From Trypanosoma brucei (Eukaryota), in the NCBI GenBank assembly GCA_000002445.1, contig CM000207.1:448001-512000 (forward strand): a stretch of 64,000 nt of DNA, read 5' to 3'. Within the stretch, counting starts at the first letter, position 1. Each line of letters starts with the position of its first letter. This document shows, piece after piece, positions 1,747 through 43,675 of this stretch. The notes under the pieces are model-generated. The model made no database searches, was not told the origin of the DNA, and saw nothing but the letters and a program-made list of their open reading frames with translations. The translations under genes were made by a program, and so were the position numbers.

Positions 1747-2997
1747 CTAAAATATTGTTAGTGTGGCGAAGACCGCGTAGAAGAGGGACAGTGGGTACAT
1801 GATGAGATATCTCTGCTTCTCCATGTGGAAACCTCTCACCAACATCGACGTTGCGCACCACGCGGACCAAAGAACGGCCAACAAGGCAGGCACCAACATC
1901 GTTTTACCGACATACCCAAATAACCAATACATCAGTGACTGCGAAGCTGCGAGAAAAACATTAGGAATCAAACCATAGCCTAACGCGCTGATGACGAACT
2001 GCAACGACACCGCATTTTCTGTCATGAGCGAGAGCAGGACTCTCATGAATATAACACCAATAACGAACTGCCCGTAAATGGTACTGAACCGCATGCTGCC
2101 CCGAAGTGAAAGCAAAATCGCAAGAAGAACGGCGAATACTATGGGTCCTGCGAGATCCATGCTGTCAGAAACGTTTTCCCCCATCTCTCTAAATGGGTTA
2201 AGGACGGCAAGTGCGTTGGCCCGTATTTCGTGAGGAAATATTCCCAGTTCGTCCAGTAGTGGAAGATCATCTTCGGGGTATCCGAAACGCTGCTGGTGCA
2301 GTGGAACTTGTCCTTGTGAGGTGTCGACTCCGCTTTCGTTGTTAAAGGCTGTCATCATATTCCGCAATGCAAGTGTCTGCAACAAATTCCCGAAGAATCC
2401 CGGTTGGGTTGGGGAATACGACGTTGGGGGTGGTGTTGGTGGTGGACCCGTTGAGGAGGTTCGTTGGTGCCACGACGTGCCCTGCAAGGGGAGCTGTTGA
2501 CCTTTTGGGGAATAGTCATGGAACACCGGTACCGCTGGATTCATTAGAGGCACAGTCGTTGCTACCGGCATCTGAATGAATGGATGAGCAGCAGTAGGTT
2601 TCGGTGATTGGGTTCCACTCACGAAATGGGAGGGGCTACTTTGGAAGCTGTTCCTATCTGAGCCTGTGCGAAAGGCTTTGGGCGATGCGCACGATGCCGG
2701 CCGTGAAAAGTACGGCGTTGCCGAAGCTACTTTAGGAGGTTGCGCTTGCATTTGTTGCTGCGGGTACTGATACGGATGCTGGTATTGTTGCTGTTGCTGT
2801 TGCTGTTGTTGCCGTATTGGGTTCATGTGGTTTGCGTCCCCTCCATTATAGAAGAAATCTTCTGGTCGTGCACCAGCTGACTGGTTGGGCCACGGCGCAA
2901 ACGGCGGCGGTTGCTGGTAGTAGTTACTGTTGTTGGCCCCATTAACTTCACCTTGATTCCCCTGGGGAAAGTATAAACCGTTTGGTTGCGGTTGCAT
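1747..2997 (-). CDS. Yip1-domain (Ypt/Rab-interacting) membrane protein with a Q/P-rich N-terminus
   Basis: ATG verified at 2997-2995. N-terminal half is P/Q-rich (QQQQQQQQQYQHPYQYPQQQ). C-terminal ~180 aa has the conserved Yip1 DLAGP and GY motifs followed by five hydrophobic helices (DLAGPIVFAVLLAILL...GYGLIPNVFL...). Confidence 0.7.
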   Translation of the reverse strand: MQPQPNGLYFPQGNQGEVNGANNSNYYQQPPPFAPWPNQSAGARPEDFFYNGGDANHMNPIRQQQQQQQQQYQHPYQYPQQQMQAQPPKVASATPYFSRPASCASPKAFRTGSDRNSFQSSPSHFVSGTQSPKPTAAHPFIQMPVATTVPLMNPAVPVFHDYSPKGQQLPLQGTSWHQRTSSTGPPPTPPPTSYSPTQPGFFGNLLQTLALRNMMTAFNNESGVDTSQGQVPLHQQRFGYPEDDLPLLDELGIFPHEIRANALAVLNPFREMGENVSDSMDLAGPIVFAVLLAILLSLRGSMRFSTIYGQFVIGVIFMRVLLSLMTENAVSLQFVISALGYGLIPNVFLAASQSLMYWLFGYVGKTMLVPALLAVLWSAWCATSMLVRGFHMEKQRYLIMYPLSLFYAVFATLTIF

Positions 2998-6461: not shown

Positions 6462-8708
6462 TCATGAGGGTTTGGGCATTCGTTGACACGTCCAATAATC
6501 GTAATAGTTGCGTCGCGGAGAAGGCTCCAATGGCACAGCATTGTGCGTCTGCCCGCTAGCGGCCGCTTGCCTTTTCCTGGCCGGCTGTGGCTGCTGCGTA
6601 TCAAGCAGAAGTGACGCCTCCCACGTTAATAGGCAACGTTGAGCGTAAGTTAGGGCGGAGAAAGGGCAGGATTGGTGCATCAGTGGGCTGCTGCTCTCAG
6701 GGTTGCACACGTCAGAGCGACCGGTCTTTTCAACATCGGTTGTCACCTTTTCCACCCCATTTGTGCACAGAACGGAGGGACCCGCCTGTTGTCCCTCCAA
6801 TTCTTCCTCATTTGTTGATGGCCGAGTTTGTTGCCGCGCTTCGTTCTTAACGTTCTCCTCGTCAAATTTCACCAATGGGATTGACGGAGTTGAGGAACCC
6901 GTGTGGTAGTAGCGAAGCAACTGAATGAGCGAGGGGTGCATGCCGTGCTCAACTTCAGATTCAGTTTCTTTCGTATCGTGATTTTGAGAGCCGTCTTCTA
7001 CCTTAGTTGAATTTTTGTTGTTTTGTGGGAATGCTGTAAACAGCGCCGCGTACACAGGATCATCTTCCATACGTTCGTGAATGCGTTCAACAACGGCACT
7101 GCACGAAGCTACGTAGTTTGGGGGCTTCAATCCACCGGTCGCTACCCCATCCTGCACAGAATCAATGGTGCCACCGACCTGCGCACTGCGTCTTCGCGTA
7201 GGGCGGATAGACCTCCAGATTTCTGCCAAACACGCCGACCGCGGTGGTCGAAGGCGCTTCGCAGCGTCCGGTGCTTCTGCCACATCGCTGACCGGAGGAT
7301 CCTTCTTCTCATTCGACTCAGCAGCCGCTGCAGGAGCGGATACCCTGCTGCTACGTGCGATGGTACGGGATTCTACGGTTGCCTTCACAACTTCTGTGGC
7401 CTTCTCCTTCGTCCCTGTAGCTAACTTCGCGGAAGATCGAGTATGACCGCTCGCTTCCCAAGTTTTGTTAGGGCCGCTGCCGGTGGGTTTTGTGGCAGAC
7501 CTCACTTCACTGACTTCCCCACCAGTGCTACTTTCTTTTGGTCGGTGCCCGCGGTGCCGACTGCGTGTGCCCGGGGGTGGAGGTCCGTTTCGTGTTGAAT
7601 CAAACCGGGTTCTCAGACGCGGTTTCTCTTCGTCATTTTCCTCTTCTTCTTCCGCTACGTTATTTTCGGTTGCCTCGGCTTTGCGCTGCGGTGGCGCTCG
7701 CTTCCGAGTAGCTTGAGTGTTTGGAAGTTTGTCCTCCTCCCCACCGCCCTCATCCGTCTCTTCTACCTTTTGCTTTGCGGCTACTGAGAGGGTGTTGCTA
7801 GGTTCCTGCGGGACGCTTTTCTTGGGGTGGAAATTTGAGAGCAGTTCATAGTAGAAGTGCCGCAGAGAAATCAGAAGCGTGTCACGGCGGGTGGGGCCAA
7901 CGTGGTTCTTTAACACCTCAACGTCCATGTTGCGGCACACAACCCACCATGAGAAGGCAAGGTCTTTCGAGCTAAACCTGTCTAAGACAACACCGCGTGT
8001 CAACAGAGATTGGTAGTAGGACACTATAGTGTCAACGATAGCGCAAGAGAACTTCACCACATCCGATTTTCCACTTACCTGGCGAGAGGTTTTTCTATCG
8101 GAGCTTGCGCCTCCCCCCTGGCCCACAGCAACTGGGAGAGAGCGCTCCGGCAGCTGCGGCGATGGCGTTCCCCCATTTCCCTCTGTAATTACTCGCTTAA
8201 GTGGCGTTGCACCAGCTTCAAACGCGTCACTTTGTTCCCGCAACCTTTTGTTGCCATCGCTACTCGAGCTCACCCTCCCTCCTCCATTTTCTTCATCCTT
8301 GCTTACAACTAGCAGAGACGCTCTCGAGGTTTCTTCGACATTGTCAGTATCCCCTCTGCTGCCGCTATGGCTCGTAATGTGTGGAGAAGCGGTCATGCGA
8401 CCTGCTGATGTTTTAGAAACAAAAGCCATAGGGCCGAAGAAGATGATGCGAGCCATGTCAACTGCACAGCCGTCCTCTGACGTGCAAATTCTTTCATCTG
8501 GCTCCGCTGCGAGTAGGAGGTGAAGGTTCTTTGCCCGTGCAGCGTTTATTGGCTCTACAGGAAGCGTGGTGTTGGCGTGATATGAACGCAAACGCTGAAT
8601 TGTATTGAGTGCAATGAAGTCTCTGCACCGGTCGTCTTTCCATGGGTCCATTTCGTACACATTGGAGGCATCCAGCGATATGCCCATTCGCCTCGTCTGT
8701 CGACTCAT
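6462..8708 (-). CDS. Hypothetical protein (~749 aa), S/R/E-rich and partly low-complexity
   Basis: The track ORF begins at a GTG (8810). The first in-frame ATG at 8708-8706 gives MSRQTRRMGISLDASNVYEMDPWKDD. Basic and acidic stretches (RKRAPPQRKAEATENNVAEEEEENDEEK) suggest nuclear localisation. No catalytic motif recognised. Confidence 0.45.
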   Translation of the reverse strand: MSRQTRRMGISLDASNVYEMDPWKDDRCRDFIALNTIQRLRSYHANTTLPVEPINAARAKNLHLLLAAEPDERICTSEDGCAVDMARIIFFGPMAFVSKTSAGRMTASPHITSHSGSRGDTDNVEETSRASLLVVSKDEENGGGRVSSSSDGNKRLREQSDAFEAGATPLKRVITEGNGGTPSPQLPERSLPVAVGQGGGASSDRKTSRQVSGKSDVVKFSCAIVDTIVSYYQSLLTRGVVLDRFSSKDLAFSWWVVCRNMDVEVLKNHVGPTRRDTLLISLRHFYYELLSNFHPKKSVPQEPSNTLSVAAKQKVEETDEGGGEEDKLPNTQATRKRAPPQRKAEATENNVAEEEEENDEEKPRLRTRFDSTRNGPPPPGTRSRHRGHRPKESSTGGEVSEVRSATKPTGSGPNKTWEASGHTRSSAKLATGTKEKATEVVKATVESRTIARSSRVSAPAAAAESNEKKDPPVSDVAEAPDAAKRLRPPRSACLAEIWRSIRPTRRRSAQVGGTIDSVQDGVATGGLKPPNYVASCSAVVERIHERMEDDPVYAALFTAFPQNNKNSTKVEDGSQNHDTKETESEVEHGMHPSLIQLLRYYHTGSSTPSIPLVKFDEENVKNEARQQTRPSTNEEELEGQQAGPSVLCTNGVEKVTTDVEKTGRSDVCNPESSSPLMHQSCPFSALTYAQRCLLTWEASLLLDTQQPQPARKRQAAASGQTHNAVPLEPSPRRNYYDYWTCQRMPKPS

Positions 8709-9929
8709 GTTTTGTAGCCACCGAGACACGCTGCCCGCCGATGTCCGCCGCTTTTCAGCCTGTGCTCTGTTCCACCTAACGCTAACCTCACCACCAACTT
8801 TCTCTAACACTTCATATTAATGAAAACGAATTCGAAAAATGAGAGTTGATGTCCGTATTAACTTCCTCCAGTGGTGGGGATGTTGACCAGCATAATTCGC
8901 TAAGATACGTAAGACAGTAACCAAGTTATGCAAAATAGTGTATCCCATGATGCCTGTCCCATCCCCACTCCCCTTCCAACTCCTTGCGACGGGAGCACGC
9001 ATATTCTCTCTCAGTGTTGTGCGTCTCATTGTTATAATTTAGGGGCGTAGCTAACAAGCGTGTTGAGGTGAGTCGGCACACGGGCAGTAAAGGGGGAAGG
9101 ATCAGAAAGGAATCAGAAGAGTAAGAACGCATTTCCATGAATCCATCTACCCGATGAAGCCGCGCCTTCCTCCTCCTTGTTTCCCACCGTCCTGAACTTC
9201 ATTTTCTTGCCACACCTCTTTCTAGCCGTGCAGGGTTCACTAATAGTTTAGCAAGCACGACCTCGGCTATAATGTGGCTTCCTTCTACTGTTCATGTCCT
9301 TGGGTGCCCACATCCCGCGTTAGCGGGTACTGTGCATGAACGCTTCAAAAATTATCGGCAAGAGCGAAAGGAACAATAATAATCTCCGATGCACTTCAAG
9401 TTTGTCAGCGGAACCGACTGCAGGACGGAAAGGAAAGTAATGATGGATGCATCCAAGAGCAGCACACCGACGCCGAGCTGACGTGTAAAGGGTAATAGAA
9501 AATCACCAAACGGTTAAGTGAAACAACGGTCCAATAATCACGACTGTGTGAAAAAAAAAAAGGAACCCGACACGCAGCAAAAACTGAAAACAGCAACAAC
9601 ATACCGACACCACCAAAAGCTACTTCGCTACTATTGTCATTTTCGCTCATTTACATTGGAGAAATGGGATAAAGGTACATCATCTTGTGACGTCTCACAT
9701 TTTGTCTCTTGTCAAAGGGAGCGTCAGGTGAAATAAACAAACCGTAACATTCGCAACACCTAAACAAAACAGACGGAAGACTGCACGCACATATATGCAC
9801 ACATTTTTTATTTATCGCAATCTCCTGTCCTGCCTTTTTTTTTCTGAACTCCGCCGCACACTAATAAACATCGTAAATCAATAAGTCGAGTTGCTCATCA
9901 ACGTGTATGACTCCTCCTTTACGTGTATA

Positions 9930-9931
<2 letters not shown>

Positions 9932-9968
<37 letters not shown>
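9932..9968. repeat. (TA)n microsatellite, ~18 units
   Basis: Direct read in the intergenic region upstream of the giant repeat gene. Confidence 0.9.
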
Positions 9969-10697: not shown

Positions 10698-13600
10698 TCA
10701 TCGTTCATTGTAAAGGTGAATGGCATTTTCCTGCGGTGTGTACCTGCTGGGGACCCAAGAACGAACTTGAACCCTCGAGGCCACGGGTTGGACCCGAGTC
10801 ATCGAGAACCGCGAGGGTGTAGGACCGACAGGTGTGCAGTGGTAATGCGCATTGGCGACTCGTGAAGCGATCCTCCCCAACCTCCTCGCAGTTTGGGACG
10901 TCGAATCCACTGTTGTACTCAAAGCGTTAGAACCGGTTGGAGAATATGGTGGTCCCCAACTGCTGGAGTGGTGCGACGGAGAACCAGGGGAAAGGCGATT
11001 CCAGCCATCCCTTTCCGTTAGCGTTGACGTACTGTCTTGGTAACTCTGTTGAGTGAATACAGGAGAAGGCATCCTTCCGCTTGGCGCCGCTCTCATGGCT
11101 GATTGAAGTGTTGGTGCCCATGAATTTGGCACCTGTTGTTGGGGGGATAGGGAGCGCGAAGCTCCCTGCACTATTTCACGTTGGTGTTCTGAGAAGGATA
11201 GGCTAAGGCGTTTTCTTTGCGGAGGTGGGTGGGGTTGCAGATATTCACCGCGACCCAGCTGGCCAGGCCCCGGTTGGGTACTCATAAAAGCTGAGCCTTC
11301 TGAGTGCGGTTCGTACAAACCACTGGTTTCACTACGCACCTCAGCGACGGGCGGTAAAGTAACGCGCTGACGACCCAACTCACCACCCAGTCCGCTGTTG
11401 GCTTTATTTTGATGTTGCTTTGATCGATTATAAGCATTGGAGATGGTGCTTCTCTTGGCTGGTAACCGCGGTGGCCGTAAGTTGACACCATCACCAAACC
11501 CTAGGTCTGGATACAGCCCAAGATACACAAGCCGCTCACCCTGGAAATCGGGACCAAAAGGCTCAGAGTTGCCGGTGTCTTGTGCAAGATTCAGTTTTCG
11601 AGAGCTCCCTGATGATGACGGACGTGCGGCAGAAGCTATCGCATCCCTTGCAGCAACAGCTCTCAAACAAGATATACTACTTGCGGGTCTCTCACCAGTG
11701 ACAGAGGGGGTGAAACGACTCGAAGTGCGGAGGGCGGGGGAACCCAAAGATTCACTTCGGCCAGCACCTGGACGAAGGGAGCAGGGCGACCCACCATCGA
11801 CCACCCACGGACGCCGATTTTCAGCTTCTGCAGACTGCAAAGACACGTTACGACCAGTATTCTCCTCTTTCGTATCGTGAAGAACTCCATCGCAGCTGAA
11901 AACAACAGAGGGAGATGCAGCTGATTGATTCTTTTCGCGGTAATCAAATGGGGAACTGCCGACATCCCGCGCATTCAGGACGCAGTGTTGGAGATCACGG
12001 CGCCGCGGTGCAGAAAAACGTGACGGTGTCCCCGACAATTTCGAGTGACTACGCATAGATGATGACACATCGGGCAGAGCGCTAACACCTCCAGCTTCTT
12101 TATCGCTGACGTTAGCAATGTCACCGCTCATACTGATAGTTGAACCTACCCGTTCCGTGGACACTCCTTCCGCTTTTGGTGAGTCATCGGCATTGTTATT
12201 GGCTTCAGCAGTTTGACACCGCCTTCGATTATTTGGCAGTCGCGCAGTTTTTTCCTTTGATGATACACCGGCAGAGGCACACCCACTACCCAAAGCATTG
12301 TTCAGTGTGGTAATCACGGCATCACGTGCAGCGTCAACAGCCGAGTTTTTCACAGCACTCCTCAAAGTTGATCTAACAGCAGAGACTCCACCCCCCGTAG
12401 GGGCACCATCATAAATCATATTTGACATTTCTTCCGACGACCAGCGTATAAACTCCTCACCATCAACAACTAGCTGAGCGCAGACATCAACAGAAACGAC
12501 GATTGCTTCACCAAATACAACAGGTTCCACAACAGCAGATGAAAAACTTGTTAACTTACCGCCCCTCCGAGTGTCAACAGATCCCACTTCACCCCCCTTC
12601 ACCGACAACACATCAACATCCTTTGACAACGAGGAAATCTCTCGCATTTCATTGCAGGCATCAGCCTCAAAACGAAATACTTTCCCCTCAACACCAGAAT
12701 TATCTAATGTAAGGCGATTAGCAGAAGAGACGTCACTACCAACAGATGGTACACCATCAATTTCAAAATCCTCAACATCTTCAGGAGCAGCTGTTCCTGT
12801 AACATCAGTTTTACTTCCCTCGCCATCACAAACAAATCCATCACTTCCACCATCCTCTTTGCTCAGTTCCTTTGCATCAACATCAGCTGTGGGAATAGCT
12901 GCATCCTCTTTGCTCAGTTCCTTTGCATCATCATCAGCTGTAGGAATAGCTGCATCCTCTTTGCTCAGTTCCTTTGCATCATCATCGGCTGTGGGAATAG
13001 CTGCATCCTCTTTGCTCAGTTCCTTTGCATCATCATCAGCAGTGGGAATAGCTGCATCCTCTTTGCTCAGTTCCTTTGCATCATCATCAGCTGTAGGAAT
13101 AGCTGCATCCTCTTTGCTCAGTTCCTTTGCATCAACATCAGCTGTGGGAATAGCTGCATCCTCTTTGCTCAGTTCCTTTGCATCAACATCAGCTGTGGGA
13201 ATAGCTGCATCCTCTTTGCTCAGTTCCTTTGCATCATCATCAGCTGTAGGAATGGCTGCATCCTCTTTGCTCAGTTCCTTTGCATCATCATCAGCTGTGG
13301 GAATGGCTGCATCCTCTTTGCTCAGTTCCTTTGCATCATCATCAGCTGTAGGAATAGCTGCATCCTCTTTGCTCAGTTCCTTTGCATCATCATCGGCTGT
13401 GGGAATAGCTGCATCCTCTTTGCTCAGTTCCTTTGCATCATCATCAGCTGTGGGAATAGCTGCATCCTCTTTGCTCAGTTCCTTTGCATCATCATCGGCT
13501 GTGGGAATAGCTGCATCCTCTTTGCTCAGTTCCTTTGCATCAACATCAGCTGTGGGAATGGCTGCATCCTCTTTGCTCAGTTCCTTTGCATCATCATCAG

Positions 13601-16600
13601 CTGTGGGAATAGCTGCATCCTCTTTGCTCAGTTCCTTTGCATCATCATCAGCTGTAGGAATAGCTACATCCTCTTTGCTCAGTTCCTTTGCATCATCATC
13701 GGCTGTGGGAATAGCTGCATCCTCTTTGCTCAGTTCCTTTGCATCATCATCAGCTGTGGGAATGGCTGCATCCTCTTTGCTCAGTTCCTTTGCATCATCA
13801 TCGGCTGTGGGAATAGCTGCATCCTCTTTGCTCAGTTCCTTTGCATCATCATCAGCTGTGGGAATAGCTGCATCCTCTTTGCTCAGTTCCTTTGCATCAT
13901 CATCAGCTGTGGGAATGGCTGCATCCTCTTTGCTCAGTTCCTTTGCATCATCATCAGCTGTAGGAATAGCTGCATCCTCTTTGCTCAGTTCCTTTGCATC
14001 ATCATCGGCTGTGGGAATAGCTGCATCCTCTTTGCTCAGTTCCTTTGCATCAACATCAGCTGTGGGAATGGCTGCATCCTCTTTGCTCAGTTCCTTTGCA
14101 TCATCATCGGCTGTGGGAATAGCTGCATCCTCTTTGCTCAGTTCCTTTGCATCAACATCAGCTGTGGGAATGGCTGCATCCTCTTTGCTCAGTTCCTTTG
14201 CATCATCATCAGCTGTGGGAATAGCTGCATCCTCTTTGCTCAGTTCCTTTGCATCATCATCAGCTGTAGGAATAGCTACATCCTCTTTGCTCAGTTCCTT
14301 TGCATCATCATCGGCTGTGGGAATAGCTGCATCCTCTTTGCTCAGTTCCTTTGCATCAACATCAGCTGTGGGAATAGCTGCATCCTCTTTGCTCAGTTCC
14401 TTTGCATCATCATCAGCTGTGGGAATAGCTGCATCCTGTTTGCTCAGTTCCTTTGCATCATCATCGGCTGTGGGAATAGCTGCATCCTGTTTGCTCAGTT
14501 CCTTTGCATTATCATCAGCTGTGGGAATAGCTGCATCCTCTTTGCTCAGTTCCTTTGCATCAACATCAGCTGTGGGAATAGCTGCATCCTCTTTGCTCAG
14601 TTCCTTTGCATCAACATCAGCTGTGGGAATAGCTGCATCCTCTTTGCTCAGTTCCTTTGCATCAACATCAGCTGTGGGAATGGCTGCATCCTCTTTGCTC
14701 AGTTCCTTTGCATCAACATCAGCTGTGGGAATAGCTGCATCCTCTTTGCTCAGTTTCTTTGCATCAACATCAGCTGTGGGAATAGCTGCATCCTCTTTGC
14801 TCAGTTTCTTTGCATCAACATCAGCTGTGGGAATAGCTGCATCCTCTTTGCTCAGTTCCTTTGCATCATCATCAGCTGTGGGAATAGCTGCATCCTCTTT
14901 GCTCAGTTCCTTTGCATCATCATCAGCTGTGGGAATAGCTGCATCCTCTTTGCCCAGTTCCTTTGCATCATCATCAGCTGTGGGAATAGCTGCATCCTGT
15001 TTGCTCAGTTCCTTTGCATTATCATCAGCTGTGGGAATAGCTGCATCCTCTTTGCTCAGTTCCTTTGCATCATCATCAGCTGTGGGAATAGCTGCATCCT
15101 CTTTGCTCAGTTCCTTTGCATCAACATCAGCTGTGGGAATAGCTGCATCCTCTTTGCTCAGTTTCTTTGCATCAACATCAGCTGTGGGAATAGCTGCATC
15201 CTCTTTGCTCAGTTCCTTTGCATCAACATCAGCTGTGGGAATAGCTGCATCCTCTTTGCTCAGTTCCTTTGCATCAACATCAGCTGTGGGAATAGCTGCA
15301 TCCTCTTTGCTCAGTTCCTTTGCATCAACATCAGCTGTGGGAATAGCTGCATCCTCTTTGCTCAGTTCCTTTGCATCAACATCAGCTGTGGGAATAGCTG
15401 CATCCTCTTTGCTCAGTTTCTTTGCATCAACATCAGCTGTGGGAATGGCTGCATCCTCTTTGCTCAGTTCCTTTGCATCAACATCAGCTGTGGGAATGGC
15501 TGCATCCTCTTTGCTCAGTTCCTTTGCATCAACATCAGCTGTGGGAATAGCTGCATCCTCTTTGCTCAGTTTCTTTGCATCAACATCAGCTGTAGGAATA
15601 GCTGCATCCTCTTTGCTCAGTTCCTTTGCATCATCATCAGCTGTGGGAATAGCTGCATCCTCTTTGCTCAGTTCCTTTGCATCATCATCAGCTGTGGGAA
15701 TAGCTGCATCCTGTTTGCTCAGTTCCTTTGCATCATCATCAGCTGTGGGAATGGCTGCATCCTGTTTGCTCAGTTCCTTTGCATCAACATCAGCTGTGGG
15801 AATAGCTACATCCTCTTTGCTCAGTTCCTTTGCATCATCATCAGCTGTGGGAATAGCTACATCCTCTTTGCTCAGTTCCTTTGCATCATCATCAGCTGTG
15901 GGAATAGCTACATCCTCTTTGCTCAGTTCCTTTGCATCATCATCAGCTGTGGGAATAGCTGCATCCTCTTTGCTCAGTTCCTTTGCATCAACATCAGCTG
16001 TGGGAATAGCTACATCCTCTTTGCTCAGTTCCTTTGCATCATCATCAGCTGTGGGAATAGCTGCATCCTCTTTGCTCAGTTCCTTTGCATCAACATCAGC
16101 TGTGGGAATAGCTGCATCCTCTTTGCTCAGTTCCTTTGCATCAACATCAGCTGTGGGAATAGCTGCATCCTCTTTGCTCAGTTCCTTTGCATCATCATCG
16201 GCTGTGGGAATAGCTACATCCTCTTTGCTCAGTTCCTTTGCATCATCATCAGCTGTGGGAATGGCTGCATCCTGTTTGCTCAGTTCCTTTGCATCAACAT
16301 CAGCTGTGGGAATAGCTACATCCTCTTTGCTCAGTTCCTTTGCATCATCATCAGCTGTGGGAATAGCTACATCCTCTTTGCTCAGTTCCTTTGCATCATC
16401 ATCGGCTGTGGGAATAGCTGCATCCTGTTTGCTCAGTTCCTTTGCATCATCATCGGCTGTGGGAATAGCTGCATCCTGTTTGCTCAGTTCCTTTGCATCG
16501 TGAGCTGCATCATTATTTGTTTTATCGTTATCACTTCCTTTATTTTTCTGTTGGAGTTCAGTGATTGTGATGTTGTCAATGACCTTTTGCGCGTTGTCAG

Positions 16601-19229
16601 ATACGGCTTTATCCATTGATTGTTGTATTAGATTGGTTAAAATTGTTTCTTTACCTTCTTGTTCGCCATTTGTGTCCAAATGTTGCTGTTTGTTTATTGT
16701 TTTGCCGTGTTGTGGTGAGTCAAATTGATTGTGTACCGTGTGCTCATTTTCGTGTGTGGTAAGCGGTTTTTCTTGCTGGTTATTGTTTGTTTCTTTAGTT
16801 GTGAAGTCGTCGCAAGTTTCTGTACCCTCTTGTTTAATTTTGTCACTGGCTCGCCGGCTTGGAACTATTTCTTGAGTGGCAACGGTATCGTTAAGGGACG
16901 GAGTGCCACCCTCGCTACCTGTTGACCCCTTCAAAACCGTGTTTTCCCCTGCGTTGTTCAAGAGTGTTTGTTCCGCTGACAGGGCATCCCCTGGTTGTTG
17001 ATGCATGGGCTCTGTTGCTTGTATTGACAGCCGATTAGAAGAATTGATTTTGTGTTCTAAATTTGTCGGTGTTGTCCCCCCAGTTTGTTTTCCTGTATCT
17101 TGTTCTTTTGATGTCCTTTCCTCTCCCTCCACTATCGTGGTAGGCTGCATACCGTTCGCCAGTTCTTGTTCTGCATGTCGTTGATTCGGTGATTCGCGTG
17201 TCTGCCGCTCTTTCTCATCTATATTTTGGCATTTTCCCACAGGAGTGAGTTGATCCCTTGTGACAGTGGTGTGCTCTTGGCAATTTCCATTGTTAATTAA
17301 CAGTTGAGAAGTATTCACCCCTTGACAACCGTTGAATTGTTGCTCAGTTGCTTGACAAGGTGGCTGTTGGTACTGCTGGAGAGCCAGCCGAAGAGACATG
17401 ACCTCTTTCTGTATAGCAGTGGTTGCACTCATTATGTATTGTTCAGAGCTCTCCGTCGCGGTGGTTCCTGCAAATTGTTCTTCGGAGCAAACATTTGTTT
17501 CGTGTTCAACTGCACTAGGTACCGATTTTTCATTTCCTGGGACCAGTGCGTCTTCGTTGAACCCCAAAACTCTGTTAACTTGCGGGGCAAACACCTGCTC
17601 CACTTTATGTGTGTGTAGTGTCTGTTGTTGTTGGTTGCCCTTATTAGTCTCGACTTCGGTGGCCGTTCTCACATCACCGAGATGCCCATGCAGATATTCT
17701 GTGGTAACACTACTGCTGTGTTCTTCCCAAAAAGGCTGAGAAGTAGGCGGCTCCTTCGTTTTCACACTTTGTACTTGGCTCCTTTGGTTCTGTGAGGATT
17801 TCCTCCTTTTCCCCTCCAGAAGTTCATACAACTTGTGAACGTTGTTCAGTTCACATGTAGTAATGATGTCGCGAATTGCAGCATCACTGAGTTTGCCGTC
17901 GTGTTGTATGGATACCTCCACCATATTTGAATTTCTACAATTAAGTGCTACCGAAACATTTCCATGCGGTACCCCAAGAGAGTGTGCGATATCTTTTTCA
18001 TATGCCTGACATAGGTGAAACGGTACCACGCGCAACGACGTGTTTTGCTTGCTCTTGGGAAGGTCAAGGAGGAACATTGACTCTCTGGGGACCAACTTGG
18101 GCACCATCGCCCTTCGTGACATCTTTTGTCCCCTGCCTTCTCCCTTTTTAGGAGACATCTCACTGAGGGGCGAGGGAGTGCTCCGTTGCGACAACAGACA
18201 TGGCTTTCTAGGGCTTGAGCACGCTAATGTTGCTGTCAATGAGAACGTGTCACCCAACGCGTCATACTTGAGGCGTCGCAACTTGTACCGTATATGCTGC
18301 TCCGCCGTATACAGTGCCTCCCTATTTAATGTTTCCTCGAACGCTACATATTGTATGTCGTCAAGCATATCTTGACTCATTTCCTCCCATGCTTCTGCCG
18401 CGTCACCTGCACTGCTGGAGCGCTGTGAAGAGCAAGTAGCAGCGAACCCCGGGCACCCCCCTTTTGCTTCCATTTGGCTACTGCTCACTGCACCTGGGCT
18501 GGGGGTTCCCGTCCACCGGGATGTGTCGAATGTCTTCCCGGTGCTGTTCAATTTGTTTAAAACTTTACTGACTATTGCCCCTGTCTCCCCCTCGTCGCCA
18601 GCTGCACCACCCATATACACTTCGTTTCGCTGCGGCGAGCCTTCTTTCCTATCGCTGCCGCTCCGTTGATTTCCCTGTGTATTTCGGTCCTGTGCCACCA
18701 CAGCAATTTTGTACAAGTTCCCAACATGTCGTACGTTATCAGGCGTCAGAAGAGTGTAGGCGCCCTTGTTTTTATCAAAATATGTGATAAACACCACGCT
18801 TAGTTGTAAGAGCTCTGCGTTCTTCTGTATAGTTTCCAATACTGTCTCTATTGTCAGGGGGCCGTCGACATGCGGTGCCCCAACTAGCATAGAACCAACC
18901 AGCTCACCCGAGTCGGATATAAACTCGAGAGACCAGTTTTCTCCATTTATTGTGCCCTCCAGACGGCTTCCACTCGCACCCTGAGATCGGGGGTAACCCC
19001 CTTTGCCCCACGTGCCATCGTAGGTTGATTGCAGCGATATGTCACCCGACTGTTTTTCGAAACGAGACAATGGCCTACTGTAAGGTTCCAATAAATCCGC
19101 ACTGTACGTTGAAGGCGTGTCCCTGCCACTGTGTAGGTTTCTGCCGGCTTGGTTGGGGCGTTCGCTGCCGGTAGCTACACGACCATCTAAATGTCCGTCT
19201 CCCGGATGTGCCCTAGAGGTAAAATACAT
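10698..19229 (-). CDS. Giant tandem-repeat protein (2843 aa): unique N-terminal domain, ~70 x 17-aa acidic repeats DAKELSKEDAAIPTAD[D/V], long S-rich C-terminal region
   Basis: ATG verified at 19229-19227. Single uninterrupted frame of 8.5 kb on the gene strand. The repeat unit is exactly 51 nt and near-identical between copies. Flanking regions are non-repetitive and serine-rich. Confidence 0.75.
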   Translation of the reverse strand: MYFTSRAHPGDGHLDGRVATGSERPNQAGRNLHSGRDTPSTYSADLLEPYSRPLSRFEKQSGDISLQSTYDGTWGKGGYPRSQGASGSRLEGTINGENWSLEFISDSGELVGSMLVGAPHVDGPLTIETVLETIQKNAELLQLSVVFITYFDKNKGAYTLLTPDNVRHVGNLYKIAVVAQDRNTQGNQRSGSDRKEGSPQRNEVYMGGAAGDEGETGAIVSKVLNKLNSTGKTFDTSRWTGTPSPGAVSSSQMEAKGGCPGFAATCSSQRSSSAGDAAEAWEEMSQDMLDDIQYVAFEETLNREALYTAEQHIRYKLRRLKYDALGDTFSLTATLACSSPRKPCLLSQRSTPSPLSEMSPKKGEGRGQKMSRRAMVPKLVPRESMFLLDLPKSKQNTSLRVVPFHLCQAYEKDIAHSLGVPHGNVSVALNCRNSNMVEVSIQHDGKLSDAAIRDIITTCELNNVHKLYELLEGKRRKSSQNQRSQVQSVKTKEPPTSQPFWEEHSSSVTTEYLHGHLGDVRTATEVETNKGNQQQQTLHTHKVEQVFAPQVNRVLGFNEDALVPGNEKSVPSAVEHETNVCSEEQFAGTTATESSEQYIMSATTAIQKEVMSLRLALQQYQQPPCQATEQQFNGCQGVNTSQLLINNGNCQEHTTVTRDQLTPVGKCQNIDEKERQTRESPNQRHAEQELANGMQPTTIVEGEERTSKEQDTGKQTGGTTPTNLEHKINSSNRLSIQATEPMHQQPGDALSAEQTLLNNAGENTVLKGSTGSEGGTPSLNDTVATQEIVPSRRASDKIKQEGTETCDDFTTKETNNNQQEKPLTTHENEHTVHNQFDSPQHGKTINKQQHLDTNGEQEGKETILTNLIQQSMDKAVSDNAQKVIDNITITELQQKNKGSDNDKTNNDAAHDAKELSKQDAAIPTADDDAKELSKQDAAIPTADDDAKELSKEDVAIPTADDDAKELSKEDVAIPTADVDAKELSKQDAAIPTADDDAKELSKEDVAIPTADDDAKELSKEDAAIPTADVDAKELSKEDAAIPTADVDAKELSKEDAAIPTADDDAKELSKEDVAIPTADVDAKELSKEDAAIPTADDDAKELSKEDVAIPTADDDAKELSKEDVAIPTADDDAKELSKEDVAIPTADVDAKELSKQDAAIPTADDDAKELSKQDAAIPTADDDAKELSKEDAAIPTADDDAKELSKEDAAIPTADVDAKKLSKEDAAIPTADVDAKELSKEDAAIPTADVDAKELSKEDAAIPTADVDAKKLSKEDAAIPTADVDAKELSKEDAAIPTADVDAKELSKEDAAIPTADVDAKELSKEDAAIPTADVDAKELSKEDAAIPTADVDAKKLSKEDAAIPTADVDAKELSKEDAAIPTADDDAKELSKEDAAIPTADDNAKELSKQDAAIPTADDDAKELGKEDAAIPTADDDAKELSKEDAAIPTADDDAKELSKEDAAIPTADVDAKKLSKEDAAIPTADVDAKKLSKEDAAIPTADVDAKELSKEDAAIPTADVDAKELSKEDAAIPTADVDAKELSKEDAAIPTADVDAKELSKEDAAIPTADDNAKELSKQDAAIPTADDDAKELSKQDAAIPTADDDAKELSKEDAAIPTADVDAKELSKEDAAIPTADDDAKELSKEDVAIPTADDDAKELSKEDAAIPTADDDAKELSKEDAAIPTADVDAKELSKEDAAIPTADDDAKELSKEDAAIPTADVDAKELSKEDAAIPTADDDAKELSKEDAAIPTADDDAKELSKEDAAIPTADDDAKELSKEDAAIPTADDDAKELSKEDAAIPTADDDAKELSKEDAAIPTADDDAKELSKEDAAIPTADDDAKELSKEDVAIPTADDDAKELSKEDAAIPTADDDAKELSKEDAAIPTADVDAKELSKEDAAIPTADDDAKELSKEDAAIPTADDDAKELSKEDAAIPTADDDAKELSKEDAAIPTADDDAKELSKEDAAIPTADDDAKELSKEDAAIPTADDDAKELSKEDAAIPTADVDAKELSKEDAAIPTADVDAKELSKEDAAIPTADDDAKELSKEDAAIPTADDDAKELSKEDAAIPTADDDAKELSKEDAAIPTADDDAKELSKEDAAIPTADVDAKELSKEDGGSDGFVCDGEGSKTDVTGTAAPEDVEDFEIDGVPSVGSDVSSANRLTLDNSGVEGKVFRFEADACNEMREISSLSKDVDVLSVKGGEVGSVDTRRGGKLTSFSSAVVEPVVFGEAIVVSVDVCAQLVVDGEEFIRWSSEEMSNMIYDGAPTGGGVSAVRSTLRSAVKNSAVDAARDAVITTLNNALGSGCASAGVSSKEKTARLPNNRRRCQTAEANNNADDSPKAEGVSTERVGSTISMSGDIANVSDKEAGGVSALPDVSSSMRSHSKLSGTPSRFSAPRRRDLQHCVLNARDVGSSPFDYREKNQSAASPSVVFSCDGVLHDTKEENTGRNVSLQSAEAENRRPWVVDGGSPCSLRPGAGRSESLGSPALRTSSRFTPSVTGERPASSISCLRAVAARDAIASAARPSSSGSSRKLNLAQDTGNSEPFGPDFQGERLVYLGLYPDLGFGDGVNLRPPRLPAKRSTISNAYNRSKQHQNKANSGLGGELGRQRVTLPPVAEVRSETSGLYEPHSEGSAFMSTQPGPGQLGRGEYLQPHPPPQRKRLSLSFSEHQREIVQGASRSLSPQQQVPNSWAPTLQSAMRAAPSGRMPSPVFTQQSYQDSTSTLTERDGWNRLSPGSPSHHSSSWGPPYSPTGSNALSTTVDSTSQTARRLGRIASRVANAHYHCTPVGPTPSRFSMTRVQPVASRVQVRSWVPSRYTPQENAIHLYNER
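12850..16505 (-). repeat. 51-bp tandem repeat array (~71 units), coding, inside the giant ORF
   Basis: Plus-strand unit gctgtgggaatagctgcatcctctttgctcagttcctttgcatcatcatca is repeated head-to-tail. Only a handful of substitution types occur (atc/aac, agct/ggct, atagct/atggct, gcatcc/acatcc, tcctct/tcctgt, gttcc/gtttc) and they appear in blocks. Confidence 0.95.
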
Positions 19230-20295
19230 GTATCCCCGCTAAGGGGGCGATAGAACCACTGCTTGTTGCCTATAAATGGGCAATCCTTACCTCCTCTTTT
19301 TCTTACCCTCCCCTCTCTCCTACTACCACGCAGTCAATGCTTTCTAATGTGAAGCCGCTCACCGCGTTAAATGAACGGGTTTGCCGAGCGAAAGGAACAA
19401 ATAATACTGTGCGAGTGCGCTTTTTTCCGTGGCCGTATGTTCATGCAACGCCAAGAAGCGTGTAGGGAGCACGAAGTCCCTCTCCGTCACTTCAGTCGGG
19501 AGGGTTGCTCGTATTGTTACAAGACAAAGGTGCTGGAAAAGAAGGTGTTGCGGAGGTTTTTTCTTCCTATTATTTCGACTTCTGACCCTGAGTGTGGAGA
19601 GAAGCACATAGTTCACACAGAAATTAGTGAGGAAAAACGGGTGGTGTGAGCGAAAAGGAGAGTGTCGGTGTGGTAAAATATACACATCCATCCAGTTTTC
19701 CCAAACATAATTAGAACCAAACTTATTTTGTTGTCTGTGAAAAAAAAAATACGTTGTACTGTTGGATATTCTACACACTTTTAAATTTCGGGGTCCGTGC
19801 AGGCATGTTATTGACGACTGTAGTGTTCGTACCCGTTGCGTGGTCCGGTAAGGTGCTCGGCAGTCCCAGTTCCACCCCTTGTGAGAGGCGTGGGTAAGAT
19901 GTGTAAAATTTCATAAATCACCAACTCGTTGGCTTAGTGATGGACGCAACGGAATGTCCCTCTCTCTTTGCATTTGCCCCCACATTGGGTTCAAATGGAT
20001 GCATGCCGTTGACGGTGGGGAAGATCGAAATAAACGGTGGTAATATAGGAGGAGATTAATGGGTTACCAGCGATTTTAATCTCGTTCCGTAAATATAAGG
20101 CTTTCCCCACTCCGCGCCAGCAAGTCACAGAAGAAGAAACTTCGAGCAGGTGGTTACTAAGCTGAAACCGCGCCAGATATACGGTTCTTCGTGGAACAGA
20201 GTACTGATTACAGAAGTATGAAGAAACATTTATCGCTTTGTTCGTAGGGGTGAAACTTGGCATGTAGCACAGCCAACTAACATCGTCGCCGTGGT

Positions 20296-21702
20296 TTACC
20301 GGGCATCCTCTTCCCTTGTGCGCTTTGCCGTTCTCCCACTCTCGTTCCATTGCATCGCCCTCTCTGCGCTGCGTCGACGCCGTTGCAAGAATTCAAAGCT
20401 CCTTTCCCACACCTTCTCCAACTCCAACCGATGCCGCTGAAAGCCAACCCTCGCCAGCTCCAGTGATTCGTCGGTATTCCCTAACCAATACTCCCTGGAA
20501 CCCTCTGTGAGAAGTTTCAGCAGGCGGTCCCAAGCCTCACAGGTGCCCATCGTGCGGGTTACGCGTACTCCCGTCAGAAGAACATAGACGGGAGTTTTGG
20601 CTGCGTGCATTGTCTCCATAATGTGAATAGAACCAGCAACTAATGGGCGGAGGTGTGCAAGTAGGATAGGAAAGCTCGCGCACTCCGGACGACCAAAGAC
20701 AAACATGATTACTCCGCCATCACGAACATGTTTGACAGCGATCTGCAGCTGCGGAACAAGGAAACTAAACCATGGCAACACAGGATGCCCGTCATTCGTG
20801 GGTAGTTCACCGCTGTCGCCACTCGTTTCTTCCTCGCGCTGACCGTAGTCCTGCACGGCACCCCCGTTGACGAAGTAAAAATCCCTTCCCTTGATCGCAC
20901 GGTGCTGTTGCCAGTCCTCCTCCAGTATACTCCCTTCAATTAACTCGAAGCGTCCCTTTGATGTGGGAAAATTTCTCCATGAGGAATCGAAGGCAATCCC
21001 ACCACGGTCAACAGGAAGCGAAACGCCTATCCCAGACCATCGAAGTTCTGTCACAAGGTACTTCGAAACCCCTCCGGGTGCGCATCCAAGATCAAGGAAC
21101 GTAGGTGCCGCCGTGGCATCTCCCGCTGACTGCTGCGTCGGGCGAGAGAGTGCTGGAGGAGCGGTACAGAAGTATTCCGGCGCCACTGTGCGTAAGACAC
21201 GCTTCGCATGATCACAGTACCGCTGGCAGAGTTTACTAACATCGGTTCTCGCAAAGGAGGTAACCGGTGCCACATGTGTGCCGCTGCTCGCCTTCTTGGA
21301 GTCCTCCTCAGGCCCGCCTTGGGTTGAGTGCCTTTGACGTCGCTGATACCACATATCCAGTGCCTCAGACCTCCAACCCTCGTCGCGTTCGGCAATGAGC
21401 GCGCGGTACGCAGTGGACACGGTCAGAAGATAATCCCTCCATCGGCAGCACCGACTACTACCACTGTTAACAACGGGAGCAGAGTTGAGATTCATGGTTT
21501 GCCCATTTTTTTCAAGAACAACGTTATCGGGGGTTTCCATCCAGTGGTACCTCAACCACTTTCCTTCCCTTCCTATAGTGTTTGCAGTCGGTGGTGAACA
21601 CGCTAAAGGATTCCACAGAGGAGGTGTGTGTGTTCGAGTGGGGAGTGGGGCAGGCACCCAACCGAAAAGAGGCACTGCGGATAGAATAGGGTGCACGTCC
21701 AT
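20296..21702 (-). CDS. FtsJ/RrmJ-like ribose 2'-O-methyltransferase domain protein (candidate cap, rRNA or tRNA 2'-O-MTase)
   Basis: The track ORF (start 21879) overlaps the upstream gene by 65 nt. ATG at 21702-21700 (MDVHPILS) is immediately preceded on the coding strand by a polyY tract ending in AG. The SAM-binding motif FLDLGCAPGGVSKYL matches the FtsJ motif DLGAAPGGW. Confidence 0.55.
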   Translation of the reverse strand: MDVHPILSAVPLFGWVPAPLPTRTHTPPLWNPLACSPPTANTIGREGKWLRYHWMETPDNVVLEKNGQTMNLNSAPVVNSGSSRCCRWRDYLLTVSTAYRALIAERDEGWRSEALDMWYQRRQRHSTQGGPEEDSKKASSGTHVAPVTSFARTDVSKLCQRYCDHAKRVLRTVAPEYFCTAPPALSRPTQQSAGDATAAPTFLDLGCAPGGVSKYLVTELRWSGIGVSLPVDRGGIAFDSSWRNFPTSKGRFELIEGSILEEDWQQHRAIKGRDFYFVNGGAVQDYGQREEETSGDSGELPTNDGHPVLPWFSFLVPQLQIAVKHVRDGGVIMFVFGRPECASFPILLAHLRPLVAGSIHIMETMHAAKTPVYVLLTGVRVTRTMGTCEAWDRLLKLLTEGSREYWLGNTDESLELARVGFQRHRLELEKVWERSFEFLQRRRRSAERAMQWNESGRTAKRTREEDAR

Positions 21703-21814: not shown

Positions 21815-22156
21815 TCAGTTCGCTTCGGGATTCTTCTTACTCCTCTCGATATTGTAAATGTATAATTTCTTGAGGGCACCGTCGGTGCACTGACCGAAGG
21901 CTACGTTCTCCTGAAAGCAGTCCGTTGCCCACCGCTCCCCGGCCTTTTCTTGACATTTCACACCAGTGTTGTACTCTTTTGAACAGAACACCTCCGCGAT
22001 GCCCAACAAGTAGGCGCCCTTCTGCCTTTGGCATACAAAGTTGATATCATCGTTAACACGTGACTGGAGGCATTGTTCAAGGTCGCGGCGCTGCTGATCG
22101 TACGTCTGGGAGAACTTGTCTGCTAGTTGGTTAAATTCCTTTGTATTGCGTGACAT
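21815..22156 (-). CDS. Twin Cx9C (CHCH-domain) small protein, 113 aa; probable mitochondrial intermembrane-space protein
   Basis: ATG verified at 22156-22154. Cysteine spacing C58-x9-C68 (CSKEYNTGVKC) and C80-x9-C90 (CFQENVAFGQC), plus an additional C29-x12-C42 pair. Confidence 0.6.
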   Translation of the reverse strand: MSRNTKEFNQLADKFSQTYDQQRRDLEQCLQSRVNDDINFVCQRQKGAYLLGIAEVFCSKEYNTGVKCQEKAGERWATDCFQENVAFGQCTDGALKKLYIYNIERSKKNPEAN

Positions 22157-28406: not shown

Positions 28407-28676
28407 CAAGCAGCCAGGATACCCTCCCACAAATCGGGACGAGCTCACAACAACACTAGTCCACAAAAACGGCAGTCAGCGGAAAGAAGTCAACGGGGTA
28501 GAGCACAAAAGAAACACTTAACTAGTGACAGGGATGGTAAAAGGAATGCATAACACCGGCGATGGAAAGACAACCGAAGAGATCAACGATAGTAGCAATC
28601 AGGGTTAAAAAAAAAAAAGAGGTGTGGGTGCGGCACCCTTTTTTTTTGTACTACTTGAGGCCCTGTTGTACGCACA

Positions 28677-43615: not shown

Positions 43616-43637
43616 CACGATCAACCTACCTTCTCTA

Positions 43638-43640
<3 letters not shown>

Positions 43641-43675
<35 letters not shown>

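What the first reader, a model, noticed from the sequence alone, without database searches (positions are those of the whole stretch)
10698..19229. 8.5-kb gene encoding ~70 near-perfect copies of a 17-aa acidic repeat (DAKELSKEDAAIPTAD[D/V])
The 51-bp unit is repeated ~71 times with only six recurrent substitution types, and these are distributed in blocks. The gcatcc-to-acatcc variant clusters near both array ends, and the gttcc-to-gtttc (E to K) variants cluster in the middle. That pattern indicates ongoing homogenisation by unequal crossover or gene conversion rather than old divergence. The array sits between a unique 440-aa N-terminal domain and a ~1150-aa serine-rich tail. Long, highly regular acidic repeats of this kind in trypanosomatids are typically cytoskeleton-associated or immunodominant antigens. 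I do not recognise this specific 17-mer among the classic named repeat antigens, so it may be an uncharacterised repeat protein. Arrays like this are frequently collapsed or mis-sized in short-read assemblies, so the true copy number is uncertain.
Basis: partly seen in the sequence, partly recalled or inferred. Interest (0 to 1): 0.65.

Follow-up and report, generated by a model that had tools for sequence, protein, structure and literature searches.

The report
Trypanosome flagellum-attachment-zone acidic repeat protein
The 8.5-kb gene is real and is the already catalogued Trypanosoma brucei gene Tb927.9.2075, a 302-kDa phosphoprotein of the flagellum attachment zone whose 72 near-identical 17-residue acidic repeats turn over quickly between strains and species; it is a known kind of trypanosome cytoskeletal repeat protein with no dedicated functional study that I could find.

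Summary
Window 10698..19229 (-) is one uninterrupted 2843-codon ORF. It contains 71 full 51-bp units plus one degenerate unit (12828..16499).

The window is T. brucei brucei TREU927 chromosome 9, and the gene is Tb927.9.2075. Two published phosphopeptides listed under that ID (S2426, S2678) occur once each in the ORF, with the serine at exactly those residue numbers. The TrypTag genome-wide tagging project lists it as "whole FAZ". A nanopore transcript over 10 kb is reported for it. GenBank Trypanozoon records do not annotate it, and the DAL972 and T. equiperdum assemblies break inside the array.

Best reading: a FAZ scaffold protein anchored by its N-terminal domains, with a rapidly homogenising polyanionic spacer and a basic, phosphorylated tail. 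The gene is already known and its mechanism is untested. Interest is modest.

The parts
10698..19229 (-). Complete CDS of Tb927.9.2075. It encodes 2843 aa, 302 kDa, pI 4.4.
   Evidence: ORF listing and translation. Mass and pI. Identity by exact residue numbering of the published phosphosites S2426 and S2678.
18942..19229 (-). N-terminal aa 1-96. Predicted disordered and poorly conserved.
   Evidence: AlphaFold2 pLDDT is about 30 over residues 1-95. The alignment shows little conservation here.
18690..18941 (-). Domain 1, aa 97-180. A beta-grasp domain with a PB1-like fold and the most conserved block of the family.
18222..18374 (-). Long predicted helix, aa 286-336. It contains the family-conserved E299, R303 and E310.
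   Evidence: AlphaFold2 secondary structure. Conserved columns.
17769..18092 (-). Domain 2, aa 380-487. Pfam FAZ1_cons (PF23398), an alpha/beta domain.
   Evidence: Pfam gives 29.7 bits in the 910-aa query and 33.9 bits for the domain alone, against a cut-off of 27.5. The domain-only AlphaFold2 model has pLDDT 87 and pTM 0.76. No significant solved-structure match was found.
16500..17768 (-). Linker, aa 488-910. Low-complexity and rich in Gln, Thr, Asn and Glu.
   Evidence: Translation. Composition profile. Most brucei/gambiense amino-acid differences fall in this stretch.
12828..16499 (-). Array of 71 full and 1 degenerate 51-bp (17-aa) units with consensus DAKELSKEDAAIPTAD[D/V]. It spans 1224 aa, has net charge -239 and pI 4.05.
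   Evidence: Tandem Repeats Finder. Unit-by-unit table. Charge and pI.
10701..12827 (-). C-terminal tail, aa 2135-2843. Rich in Ser, Gly, Arg and Pro. The last 300 aa have pI 10.4.
   Evidence: Composition and pI. Weakly conserved with T. vivax apart from one motif.
11952..11954 (-). Codon of Ser2426, a published phosphosite.
   Evidence: PMC6907760 S2 Table lists Tb927.9.2075 S2426 with a flanking peptide found once in the ORF at that position.
11196..11198 (-). Codon of Ser2678 in RKRLSLSFSE, a published cell-cycle-regulated phosphosite.
   Evidence: PMC6907760 S2 and S4 Tables. The position was verified in the ORF.
10827..10886 (-). Short motif RRLGRIASRVANAH near the C-terminus (aa 2782-2801). 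It is the only tail segment shared with the T. vivax orthologue.
   Evidence: BLASTP gives 11/20 identities, E 0.03, at a similar distance from the C-terminus in both proteins. The evidence is weak.
12571..16503 (+). Antisense 1310-aa ORF lying almost wholly within the array. I read it as a by-product of the repeat, not a gene.
   Evidence: ORF listing. It is nearly coextensive with the repeat. The published phosphopeptides map to the minus-strand frame.

Best explanation
[quoted passage not shown] Shown:
- The ORF and its array are real.
- The protein is expressed and phosphorylated.
- A tagged version decorates the whole FAZ.
- The N-terminal third holds two folded modules: a PB1-like beta-grasp domain (aa 97-180) and a FAZ1_cons domain (aa 380-487). 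These modules are shared with positional orthologues and with a short repeat-less paralogue family found only in the genus Trypanosoma.
- The repeat sequence and unit length differ completely between species, while the acidic Ala/Glu/Asp/Pro-rich character is kept.
- The variant pattern differs strongly between two T. brucei subspecies.

Inferred:
- The N-terminal modules target and dock the protein in the FAZ filament, possibly through PB1-type head-to-tail or heterotypic contacts.
- The 1224-residue array carries about one net negative charge per five residues and one proline per 17 residues. It probably acts as an extended, non-globular polyanionic spacer. On this view composition and length matter and exact sequence does not. 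That would explain why unequal crossover and gene conversion can keep rewriting it.
- The basic Ser/Pro/Arg-rich tail (pI 10.4 over the last 300 aa) carries at least one cell-cycle-regulated phosphosite. It is a regulated contact surface, possibly for microtubules or other acidic partners.
For: Identity:
- Five neighbouring proteins match TREU927 GenBank entries exactly.
- Gene order L38e, ORC1B-like, YIP1, 108-aa ORF, Arf, p748, repeat gene fits L38 = Tb927.9.2020, ORC1B = Tb927.9.2030 and Tb927.9.2070 = a nuclear protein.
- The Tb927.9.2075 phosphopeptides S2426 and S2678 are unique in the ORF at exactly those residues.

Localisation and expression:
- The TrypTag source data list Tb927.9.2075 under 'Whole FAZ'.
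- A nanopore transcript over 10 kb covers the CDS.
- S2678 is in the set of 917 cell-cycle-regulated phosphosites.

Domains:
- Pfam FAZ1_cons scores above its cut-off.
- AlphaFold2 models both domains confidently.

Orthology:
- Synteny is perfect in T. vivax and holds on the upstream side in T. theileri.
- Orthologue repeat periods are 73/101/174 aa (T. vivax), 39 aa (T. theileri), 30 aa (T. cruzi) and 16 aa (T. rangeli). All have net charge -14 to -30 per 100 aa.

Turnover and constraint:
- DAL972 lacks the 50T, 22C and 10A variants that mark 41 of 71 units in TREU927. It is instead rich in 29T, 39T, 16G and 20G. The two arrays share only 6 unit types.
- The flanks are under moderate constraint: 13 non-synonymous and 14 synonymous differences in the N-terminal 2730 nt between the subspecies.
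Against: - No functional experiment on this gene was found, so the roles proposed for each part are inferred.
- Domain 1 has no Pfam PB1 match. By eye in the alignment, it lacks a full acidic OPCA cluster and the conserved beta-1 lysine of canonical PB1 domains.
- Foldseek E-values are weak, 6e-3 at best.
- FAZ1_cons has no known biochemical function and no solved structural relative. Pfam does not detect it in the T. vivax, T. conorhini and T. rangeli orthologues, so it may not be essential for the shared role.
- The tail is barely conserved.
- TrypTag localisation comes from a tagged protein in procyclic forms only, and I could not see which terminus gave the signal.
Confidence: 0.6

Rival explanations
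1. The repeat is mainly an immunodominant B-cell antigen. On this view the high-copy identical epitopes exist chiefly because they distract or skew host antibody responses, and the cytoskeletal location is incidental.
For: Tandem-repeat proteins of trypanosomatids are often dominant antibody targets. This rests on general knowledge and on abstracts listed, such as PMC2830943. The repeat evolves fast between subspecies and species. A T. cruzi protein annotated 'Gb4' is seroreactive in 72% of Chagas sera, but I did not see its listed peptide when reading the orthologue sequence P0042.
Against: The protein is intracellular and on the FAZ cytoskeleton, so it is not exposed on live parasites. No paper containing the 17-mer or the orthologue motifs was found. 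The acidic composition is conserved across species with very different hosts, which points to a physical role. Antigenicity and a structural role are not mutually exclusive.
Confidence: 0.15
2. It is the T. brucei GB4 protein or its direct equivalent, a microtubule plus-end or posterior-tip capping protein. Several orthologues in other species are labelled this way.
For: Orthologues or relatives in T. cruzi, T. conorhini, T. rangeli and T. theileri are named 'microtubule-associated protein Gb4' in GenBank. GB4's Lister 427 ID, Tb427tmp.160.1200, suggests to me a chromosome 9 location, but that was not checked. GB4 is listed among the T. brucei cytoskeleton-associated proteins with negatively charged repeats.
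Against: GB4 proper is Tb427tmp.160.1200. It has a 2256-nt unique 5' part followed by 37 repeats of 600 nt and no unique 3' end. The gene here has a 2730-nt unique 5' part, 72 repeats of 51 nt and a 2.1-kb unique 3' part. TrypTag lists Tb927.9.2075 under whole FAZ and not under posterior tip. The 'Gb4' labels therefore look like annotation transfer between relatives.
Confidence: 0.03
3. The array length, or the uninterrupted ORF itself, is an assembly artefact of the reference genome.
For: Other Trypanozoon assemblies fail here. DAL972 shows 36.5 units, then the tail, then 100 N, then a misplaced block of at least 28 units, and no gene is called. T. equiperdum contigs stop after 5 units on one side and 3 on the other.
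Against: The TREU927 array has no indels or frame breaks and has a non-periodic pattern of variants. Phosphosite numbering in an independent proteomic study matches this exact array length, although that only shows the same gene model was used. A direct-RNA nanopore transcript over 10 kb contains the whole CDS, which fits 8.5 kb plus UTRs. The two DAL972 blocks sum to about 65 units, close to 72. The long syntenic T. vivax gene is also uninterrupted.
Confidence: 0.07

Closest known systems
FAZ1 (Tb927.4.3740), the founding FAZ filament repeat protein of T. brucei
   Same: Both are high-molecular-mass, repeat-containing proteins listed as 'whole FAZ'. Both carry the domain modelled by Pfam FAZ1_cons.
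   Different: FAZ1 has a different gene ID on another chromosome. It was not retrieved by an exhaustive HMMER search with the 910-aa N-terminus at E <= 1e-3, so the relationship is limited to one small domain. FAZ1 has a published RNAi phenotype of attachment defects and a disorganised FAZ. This gene has none that I could find.
GB4 (Tb427tmp.160.1200), a posterior-end microtubule-associated repeat protein
   Same: Both are giant T. brucei proteins with a unique N-terminus followed by a tandem repeat array, negatively charged in GB4 too. Orthologues of the present gene are labelled 'Gb4' in other species.
   Different: GB4 has 37 repeats of 600 nt with no unique C-terminus and localises to the posterior end. 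The gene here has 72 repeats of 51 nt with a 709-aa tail and localises to the FAZ. I did not obtain the GB4 sequence, so homology of the N-termini is untested.
Repeat-less paralogue family of about 500 aa. The T. brucei member is EAN76391 / Q38FM9. Other members are T. theileri TM35_000022100, T. congolense CCD16540, T. vivax CCD19729 and T. grayi KEG06787.
   Same: It has the same order of modules: the PB1-like domain, the conserved helix, then FAZ1_cons. In T. brucei, T. vivax and T. theileri it is on the same chromosome or contig as the repeat gene. In T. theileri and T. vivax it lies a few dozen genes away, judged from accession and locus-tag numbers.
   Different: These proteins end just after FAZ1_cons, with no linker, repeats or tail. 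They are uncharacterised.
PB1 domains (p62/SQSTM1, Par6, p67phox, NBR1) and the PB1-like N-terminal domain of Par-3
   Different: There is no sequence-level match. By eye in the alignment, the canonical acidic OPCA motif and basic lysine are not conserved. Oligomerisation is untested.
Other trypanosome FAZ or cytoskeletal giant repeat proteins (FAZ10, FLAM3, ClpGM6, T. cruzi H49)
   Same: The general design is shared: unique terminal domains, a long and highly regular repeat array, and FAZ localisation.
   Different: The non-repeat domains differ: calpain-like in ClpGM6 and H49, and CLU in FLAM3. The repeat units also differ, for example 68 aa in H49. The 17-aa acidic Pro-containing unit seen here is not reported for them in the texts I read.

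Membership tests
Tb927.9.2075 (identity with the annotated T. brucei gene) | Published peptides assigned to that gene ID occur in the ORF at the published residue numbers. | tested here: met
   The S2678 and S2426 31-mers each occur in the ORF, with the central Ser at aa 2678 and 2426.
Tb927.9.2075 (identity with the annotated T. brucei gene) | Chromosomal position between Tb927.9.2070 and Tb927.9.2080 on chromosome 9. | tested here: met
   Gene order from L38e (Tb927.9.2020) and ORC1B (Tb927.9.2030) through YIP1, a 108-aa ORF, Arf and p748 to the repeat gene (IDs).
FAZ1_cons domain family (Pfam PF23398) | Score at or above the Pfam gathering cut-off of 27.5 bits. | tested here: met
   29.7 bits in the 910-aa query and 33.9 bits for aa 380-487 alone.
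Flagellum attachment zone proteins | Localisation of the protein along the FAZ. | not testable with these tools
   Taken from the literature. The TrypTag source data list Tb927.9.2075 under 'Whole FAZ'.
FAZ1 orthologue (Tb927.4.3740) | Sequence similarity along the protein beyond the single shared domain. | tested here: not met
   The exhaustive HMMER search gave only 15 hits at E <= 1e-3. None of the 15 carried a FAZ1 label in the cluster look-ups. The gene ID and chromosome also differ.
GB4 (Tb427tmp.160.1200) | About 37 tandem repeats of 600 nt after a 2256-nt unique 5' part, with no unique 3' end. | tested here: not met
   The repeat unit here is 51 nt in 72 copies, with unique parts of 2730 nt at the 5' end and 2127 nt at the 3' end.
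PB1 domain | Ubiquitin-like beta-grasp fold superimposable on solved PB1 domains. | tested here: met
PB1 domain | Sequence signature: a Pfam PB1 match, or the OPCA acidic motif and/or the conserved beta-1 lysine. | tested here: not met
   No Pfam match even at E <= 10. The alignment shows only D152 nearly invariant in the equivalent loop and no conserved beta-1 lysine, judged by eye.
PB1 domain | Homo- or hetero-oligomerisation through front-to-back contacts. | not testable with these tools
   No multimer prediction or experiment was available.
Trypanosomatid tandem-repeat B-cell antigens | Recognition of the repeat by sera of infected hosts. | not testable with these tools
   No paper containing the repeat peptides was found.

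The most novel reading that the evidence does not exclude
The PB1-like domain polymerises, with itself or with the repeat-less paralogue Q38FM9, into part of the FAZ filament. The species-specific acidic array then acts as a length-tunable spacer or brush whose copy number sets a physical dimension of the attachment zone. Rapid array turnover would in that case be a source of heritable variation in flagellum attachment or cell morphology between strains and species.
Probability: 0.12. Interest if true: 0.55.

Novelty: already known. Interest (0 to 1): 0.27.

Why it matters
The FAZ is essential for trypanosome morphogenesis and division, and TrypTag flags it as one of the most essential, lineage-specific structures. 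This component sits in the catalogue without a functional study that I could find. It is missing from the GenBank annotations of all Trypanozoon genomes in the protein collection, so proteomic or comparative work that relies on those records will overlook it.

The analysis adds three things I did not find in the papers I read:
- A PB1-like fold in front of the FAZ1_cons domain.
- A Trypanosoma-restricted two-member family, one with and one without the repeat extension.
- A clear case of repeat replacement between species, and variant turnover between subspecies, with the acidic composition preserved.

None of this changes the picture of what kind of protein it is.

Tried and rejected
- The search for homologous proteins returned nothing in three attempts. 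The third, using domain 1 alone, found only 2 candidates. I read that as real absence of an annotated Trypanozoon protein.
- A PDB sequence search with the N-terminus gave nothing.
- Foldseek against the PDB with the FAZ1_cons model gave no significant match.
- The afdb50 library was not available, so structural comparison with FAZ1, FAZ4, FAZ8 and FAZ10 models could not be made.
- Literature searches for the repeat peptides found nothing relevant.
- Counting gene IDs back from SENP (Tb927.9.2220) gave inconsistent numbering. I abandoned it in favour of the L38/ORC1B anchor and the phosphopeptide match.
- Supplements of two papers did not contain the gene ID.
- I considered Tb927.9.2120, a nucleolar ribosome-biogenesis candidate, as an alternative ID and rejected it after the phosphosite match.
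- I considered the GB4 identity and rejected it on repeat architecture.
- Pfam scans of the repeat and the tail at E <= 10 gave only noise.
Full report

Yes. Window 10698..19229 on the minus strand is one ORF of 2843 codons with an ATG start. Tandem Repeats Finder reports a 51-bp array at 12851..16499 with 71.5 copies, 96% matches, no indels and score 6696. It is the only array scoring 80 or more in the whole 64-kb window.

Read in protein register, the array covers aa 911-2134. That is 71 full 17-residue units and a 72nd that diverges after nine residues. The consensus is DAKELSKEDAAIPTAD[D/V].

The unique N-terminal part is 910 aa and the tail is 709 aa.

There are ten variable nucleotide positions, six non-synonymous and four synonymous, giving 21 distinct unit sequences. 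The A10V variant is concentrated in the first 14 units, with two isolated copies later, so it clusters at one end rather than both. The E4K variant lies in units 19-35.

The 1310-aa plus-strand ORF at 12571..16503 lies almost wholly inside the array. It is most simply the repeat read in antisense.

**2. What organism and what gene?**

Five neighbouring ORFs are identical to GenBank proteins of Trypanosoma brucei brucei TREU927 on a 3.06-Mb record. One of them is the SUMO protease, which papers give as Tb927.9.2220.

A T. equiperdum contig gives the gene order L38e, a 602-aa AAA protein, YIP1, a 108-aa ORF, Arf, a 748-aa protein, and then the C-terminus of the repeat gene. Published IDs are L38 = Tb927.9.2020, ORC1B = Tb927.9.2030 and Tb927.9.2070 = an uncharacterised nuclear, HDAC1-associated protein. 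That places the repeat gene at Tb927.9.2075.

The decisive test was the phosphoproteome of Benz and Urbaniak (PMC6907760). It lists Tb927.9.2075 S2678 with the flanking peptide YLQPHPPPQRKRLSLSFSEHQREIVQGASRS, and S2426 with RDLQHCVLNARDVGSSPFDYREKNQSAASPS. Each peptide occurs in the ORF, with the central serine at exactly residue 2678 and 2426. The ORF therefore is Tb927.9.2075, with the same start codon and array length as the database model.

**3. What is on record for it?**

- The TrypTag source data list Tb927.9.2075 among 27 'Whole FAZ' proteins.
- S2678 belongs to the 917 cell-cycle-regulated phosphosites.
- I found no paper devoted to the gene. The ID appears in the main text of only one work in the library.

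The exact protein is not in the 15-billion-sequence collection. A clean query with domain 1 alone found nothing.

In DAL972 no gene is called at the locus. That assembly shows 36.5 units, the start of the tail, 100 N, and then another block of at least 28 units. T. equiperdum contigs end 5 units into the array on one side and 3 units on the other. Only a 649-aa C-terminal fragment is called there, and it is identical to TREU927. The reference array itself is consistent with the transcript length and with about 65 units in DAL972.

**4. Anatomy**

The protein is 302 kDa with pI 4.4. The array has a net charge of -239. The last 300 residues have pI 10.4.

An exhaustive HMMER search of 1.84 billion representatives with the 910-aa N-terminus gave 15 hits. 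Conservation is concentrated in aa 86-230 and aa 403-475.

AlphaFold2 on an alignment of these sequences gives two confident domains (pLDDT about 90) and a long helix at aa 286-336. The rest of the first 520 residues is mostly modelled with low confidence (pLDDT below 50 for 218 of them).

- **Domain 2 (aa 380-487)** is Pfam FAZ1_cons at 33.9 bits against a cut-off of 27.5. It models well on its own, with pLDDT 87. It has no significant solved structural relative.

**5. Relatives**

The T. vivax protein P0053 (4584 aa) is the positional orthologue. Its neighbours are a pseudokinase, a 276-aa protein, a 113-aa protein, an FtsJ-like protein, then the gene, then a 747-aa protein, Arf and YIP1. 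The T. theileri gene is syntenic on the upstream side.

These orthologues, and the T. cruzi, T. conorhini and T. rangeli fragments, share the N-terminal modules and then enter acidic arrays of quite different units:

| Species | Repeat period |
|---|---|
| T. vivax | 73/101/174 aa |
| T. theileri | 39 aa |
| T. cruzi | 30 aa |
| T. rangeli | 16 aa |

All are Ala/Glu/Asp/Pro/Val-rich, with net charge -14 to -30 per 100 residues. The tails share only an RLGxIxSRVAxAH motif near the C-terminus.

A second, repeat-less family of about 500 aa has the same modules and ends after FAZ1_cons. Its T. brucei member is EAN76391 / Q38FM9.

Several orthologues are labelled 'microtubule-associated protein Gb4'. 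GB4 proper is a different gene, with 37 repeats of 600 nt and no unique 3' end. It marks the cell posterior.

**6. Array dynamics**

TREU927 and DAL972 differ by about 1% in the flanks: 27 of 2730 nt in the N-terminal part (13 of them non-synonymous), and 19 of 1191 nt in the tail.

Their arrays differ far more in variant content. The D17V change marks 28 of 71 units in TREU927 and none of 64 in DAL972. DAL972 is instead rich in 29T, 39T, 16G and 20G. Only 6 unit types are shared.

**7. Interpretation**

The best-supported reading is a FAZ scaffold protein. I infer the following division of labour.

- The folded N-terminal modules dock the protein. A PB1-type contact is possible but unproven.
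- The array is an extended polyanionic spacer whose composition and length matter more than its sequence.
- The basic, phosphorylated tail is a regulated contact surface.

Rival readings:
- The antigen idea is untested and not exclusive.
- The GB4 identity is refuted.
- An assembly artefact in the reference is unlikely.

The gene is already catalogued, and the design (unique ends plus a regular array on the FAZ) is familiar from FAZ1, FAZ10, FLAM3 and ClpGM6. I therefore score the finding as already known and of modest interest.

Noticed in passing
L001 (T. b. gambiense DAL972 FN554972.1) 12929-20342: The orthologous locus is mis-assembled. It shows 36.5 repeat units, about 1.2 kb of the tail, 100 N, and then another repeat block of at least 28 units. 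No gene is called across about 8.5 kb.
   Followed up: yes
L002 12928-15910 and L009 1-2314 (T. equiperdum OVI contigs): Two contigs end inside the array, 5 units in on one side and 3 units in on the other. Only a 649-aa C-terminal fragment starting at an internal Met (aa 2195) is annotated. It is 100% identical to TREU927.
   Followed up: yes
window 21815-22156 (-): A 113-aa Cys-containing ORF is called in DAL972, T. equiperdum and T. vivax at the syntenic position. The exact-sequence look-up returned no TREU927 record for it, so it may be unannotated in that GenBank entry.
   Followed up: partly
window 1747-2997 (-): The YIP1 gene model differs between records. The window ORF of 416 aa matches T. 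equiperdum and DAL972, whereas the TREU927 GenBank protein in the same cluster is 359 aa. This looks like a start-codon choice.
   Followed up: no
window 24129-28466, 29523-32669, 41276-43867, 58182-61196 (all -): Four protein-kinase or pseudokinase-like genes lie within 37 kb on the same strand. The first has only a sub-threshold Pkinase match.
   Followed up: no
window, whole: Apart from four that each overlap a longer minus-strand ORF, all ORFs of 200 aa or more are on the minus strand. This fits a single polycistronic transcription unit.
   Followed up: no
window 9933-9968: A perfect (AT)18 microsatellite lies in the 1.9-kb gap between the repeat gene's stop codon and the next gene. It is presumably in the 3' UTR or intergenic region.
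   Followed up: no
window 6462-8810 (-): By gene order, the downstream neighbour (782-aa ORF, called as 748 aa in T. equiperdum) is Tb927.9.2070. Papers report that gene as an uncharacterised nuclear protein that co-purifies with HDAC1 and CRD1.
   Followed up: partly
P0040 (T. conorhini), P0050 (T. rangeli), P0048/P0053 (T. vivax): Pfam does not detect FAZ1_cons in these relatives of the repeat gene. In T. conorhini and T. rangeli the aligned segment is Pro-rich and looks degenerate. The domain may be dispensable or fast-evolving in some lineages.
   Followed up: partly
P0051 = EAN76391 / Q38FM9 (T. brucei chromosome 9, outside the window): This is an uncharacterised 495-aa paralogue with the same PB1-like domain, helix and FAZ1_cons layout but no repeats. 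In T. theileri and T. vivax its counterpart sits on the same contig as the repeat gene, roughly 47-49 genes away by accession or locus-tag numbering.
   Followed up: partly
P0052 / P0054 (T. vivax): This protein is built of at least six tandem FAZ1_cons-like domains. It was the only hit to the domain-2 region in the exhaustive search. It shows that the domain also occurs as a repeated module.
   Followed up: no
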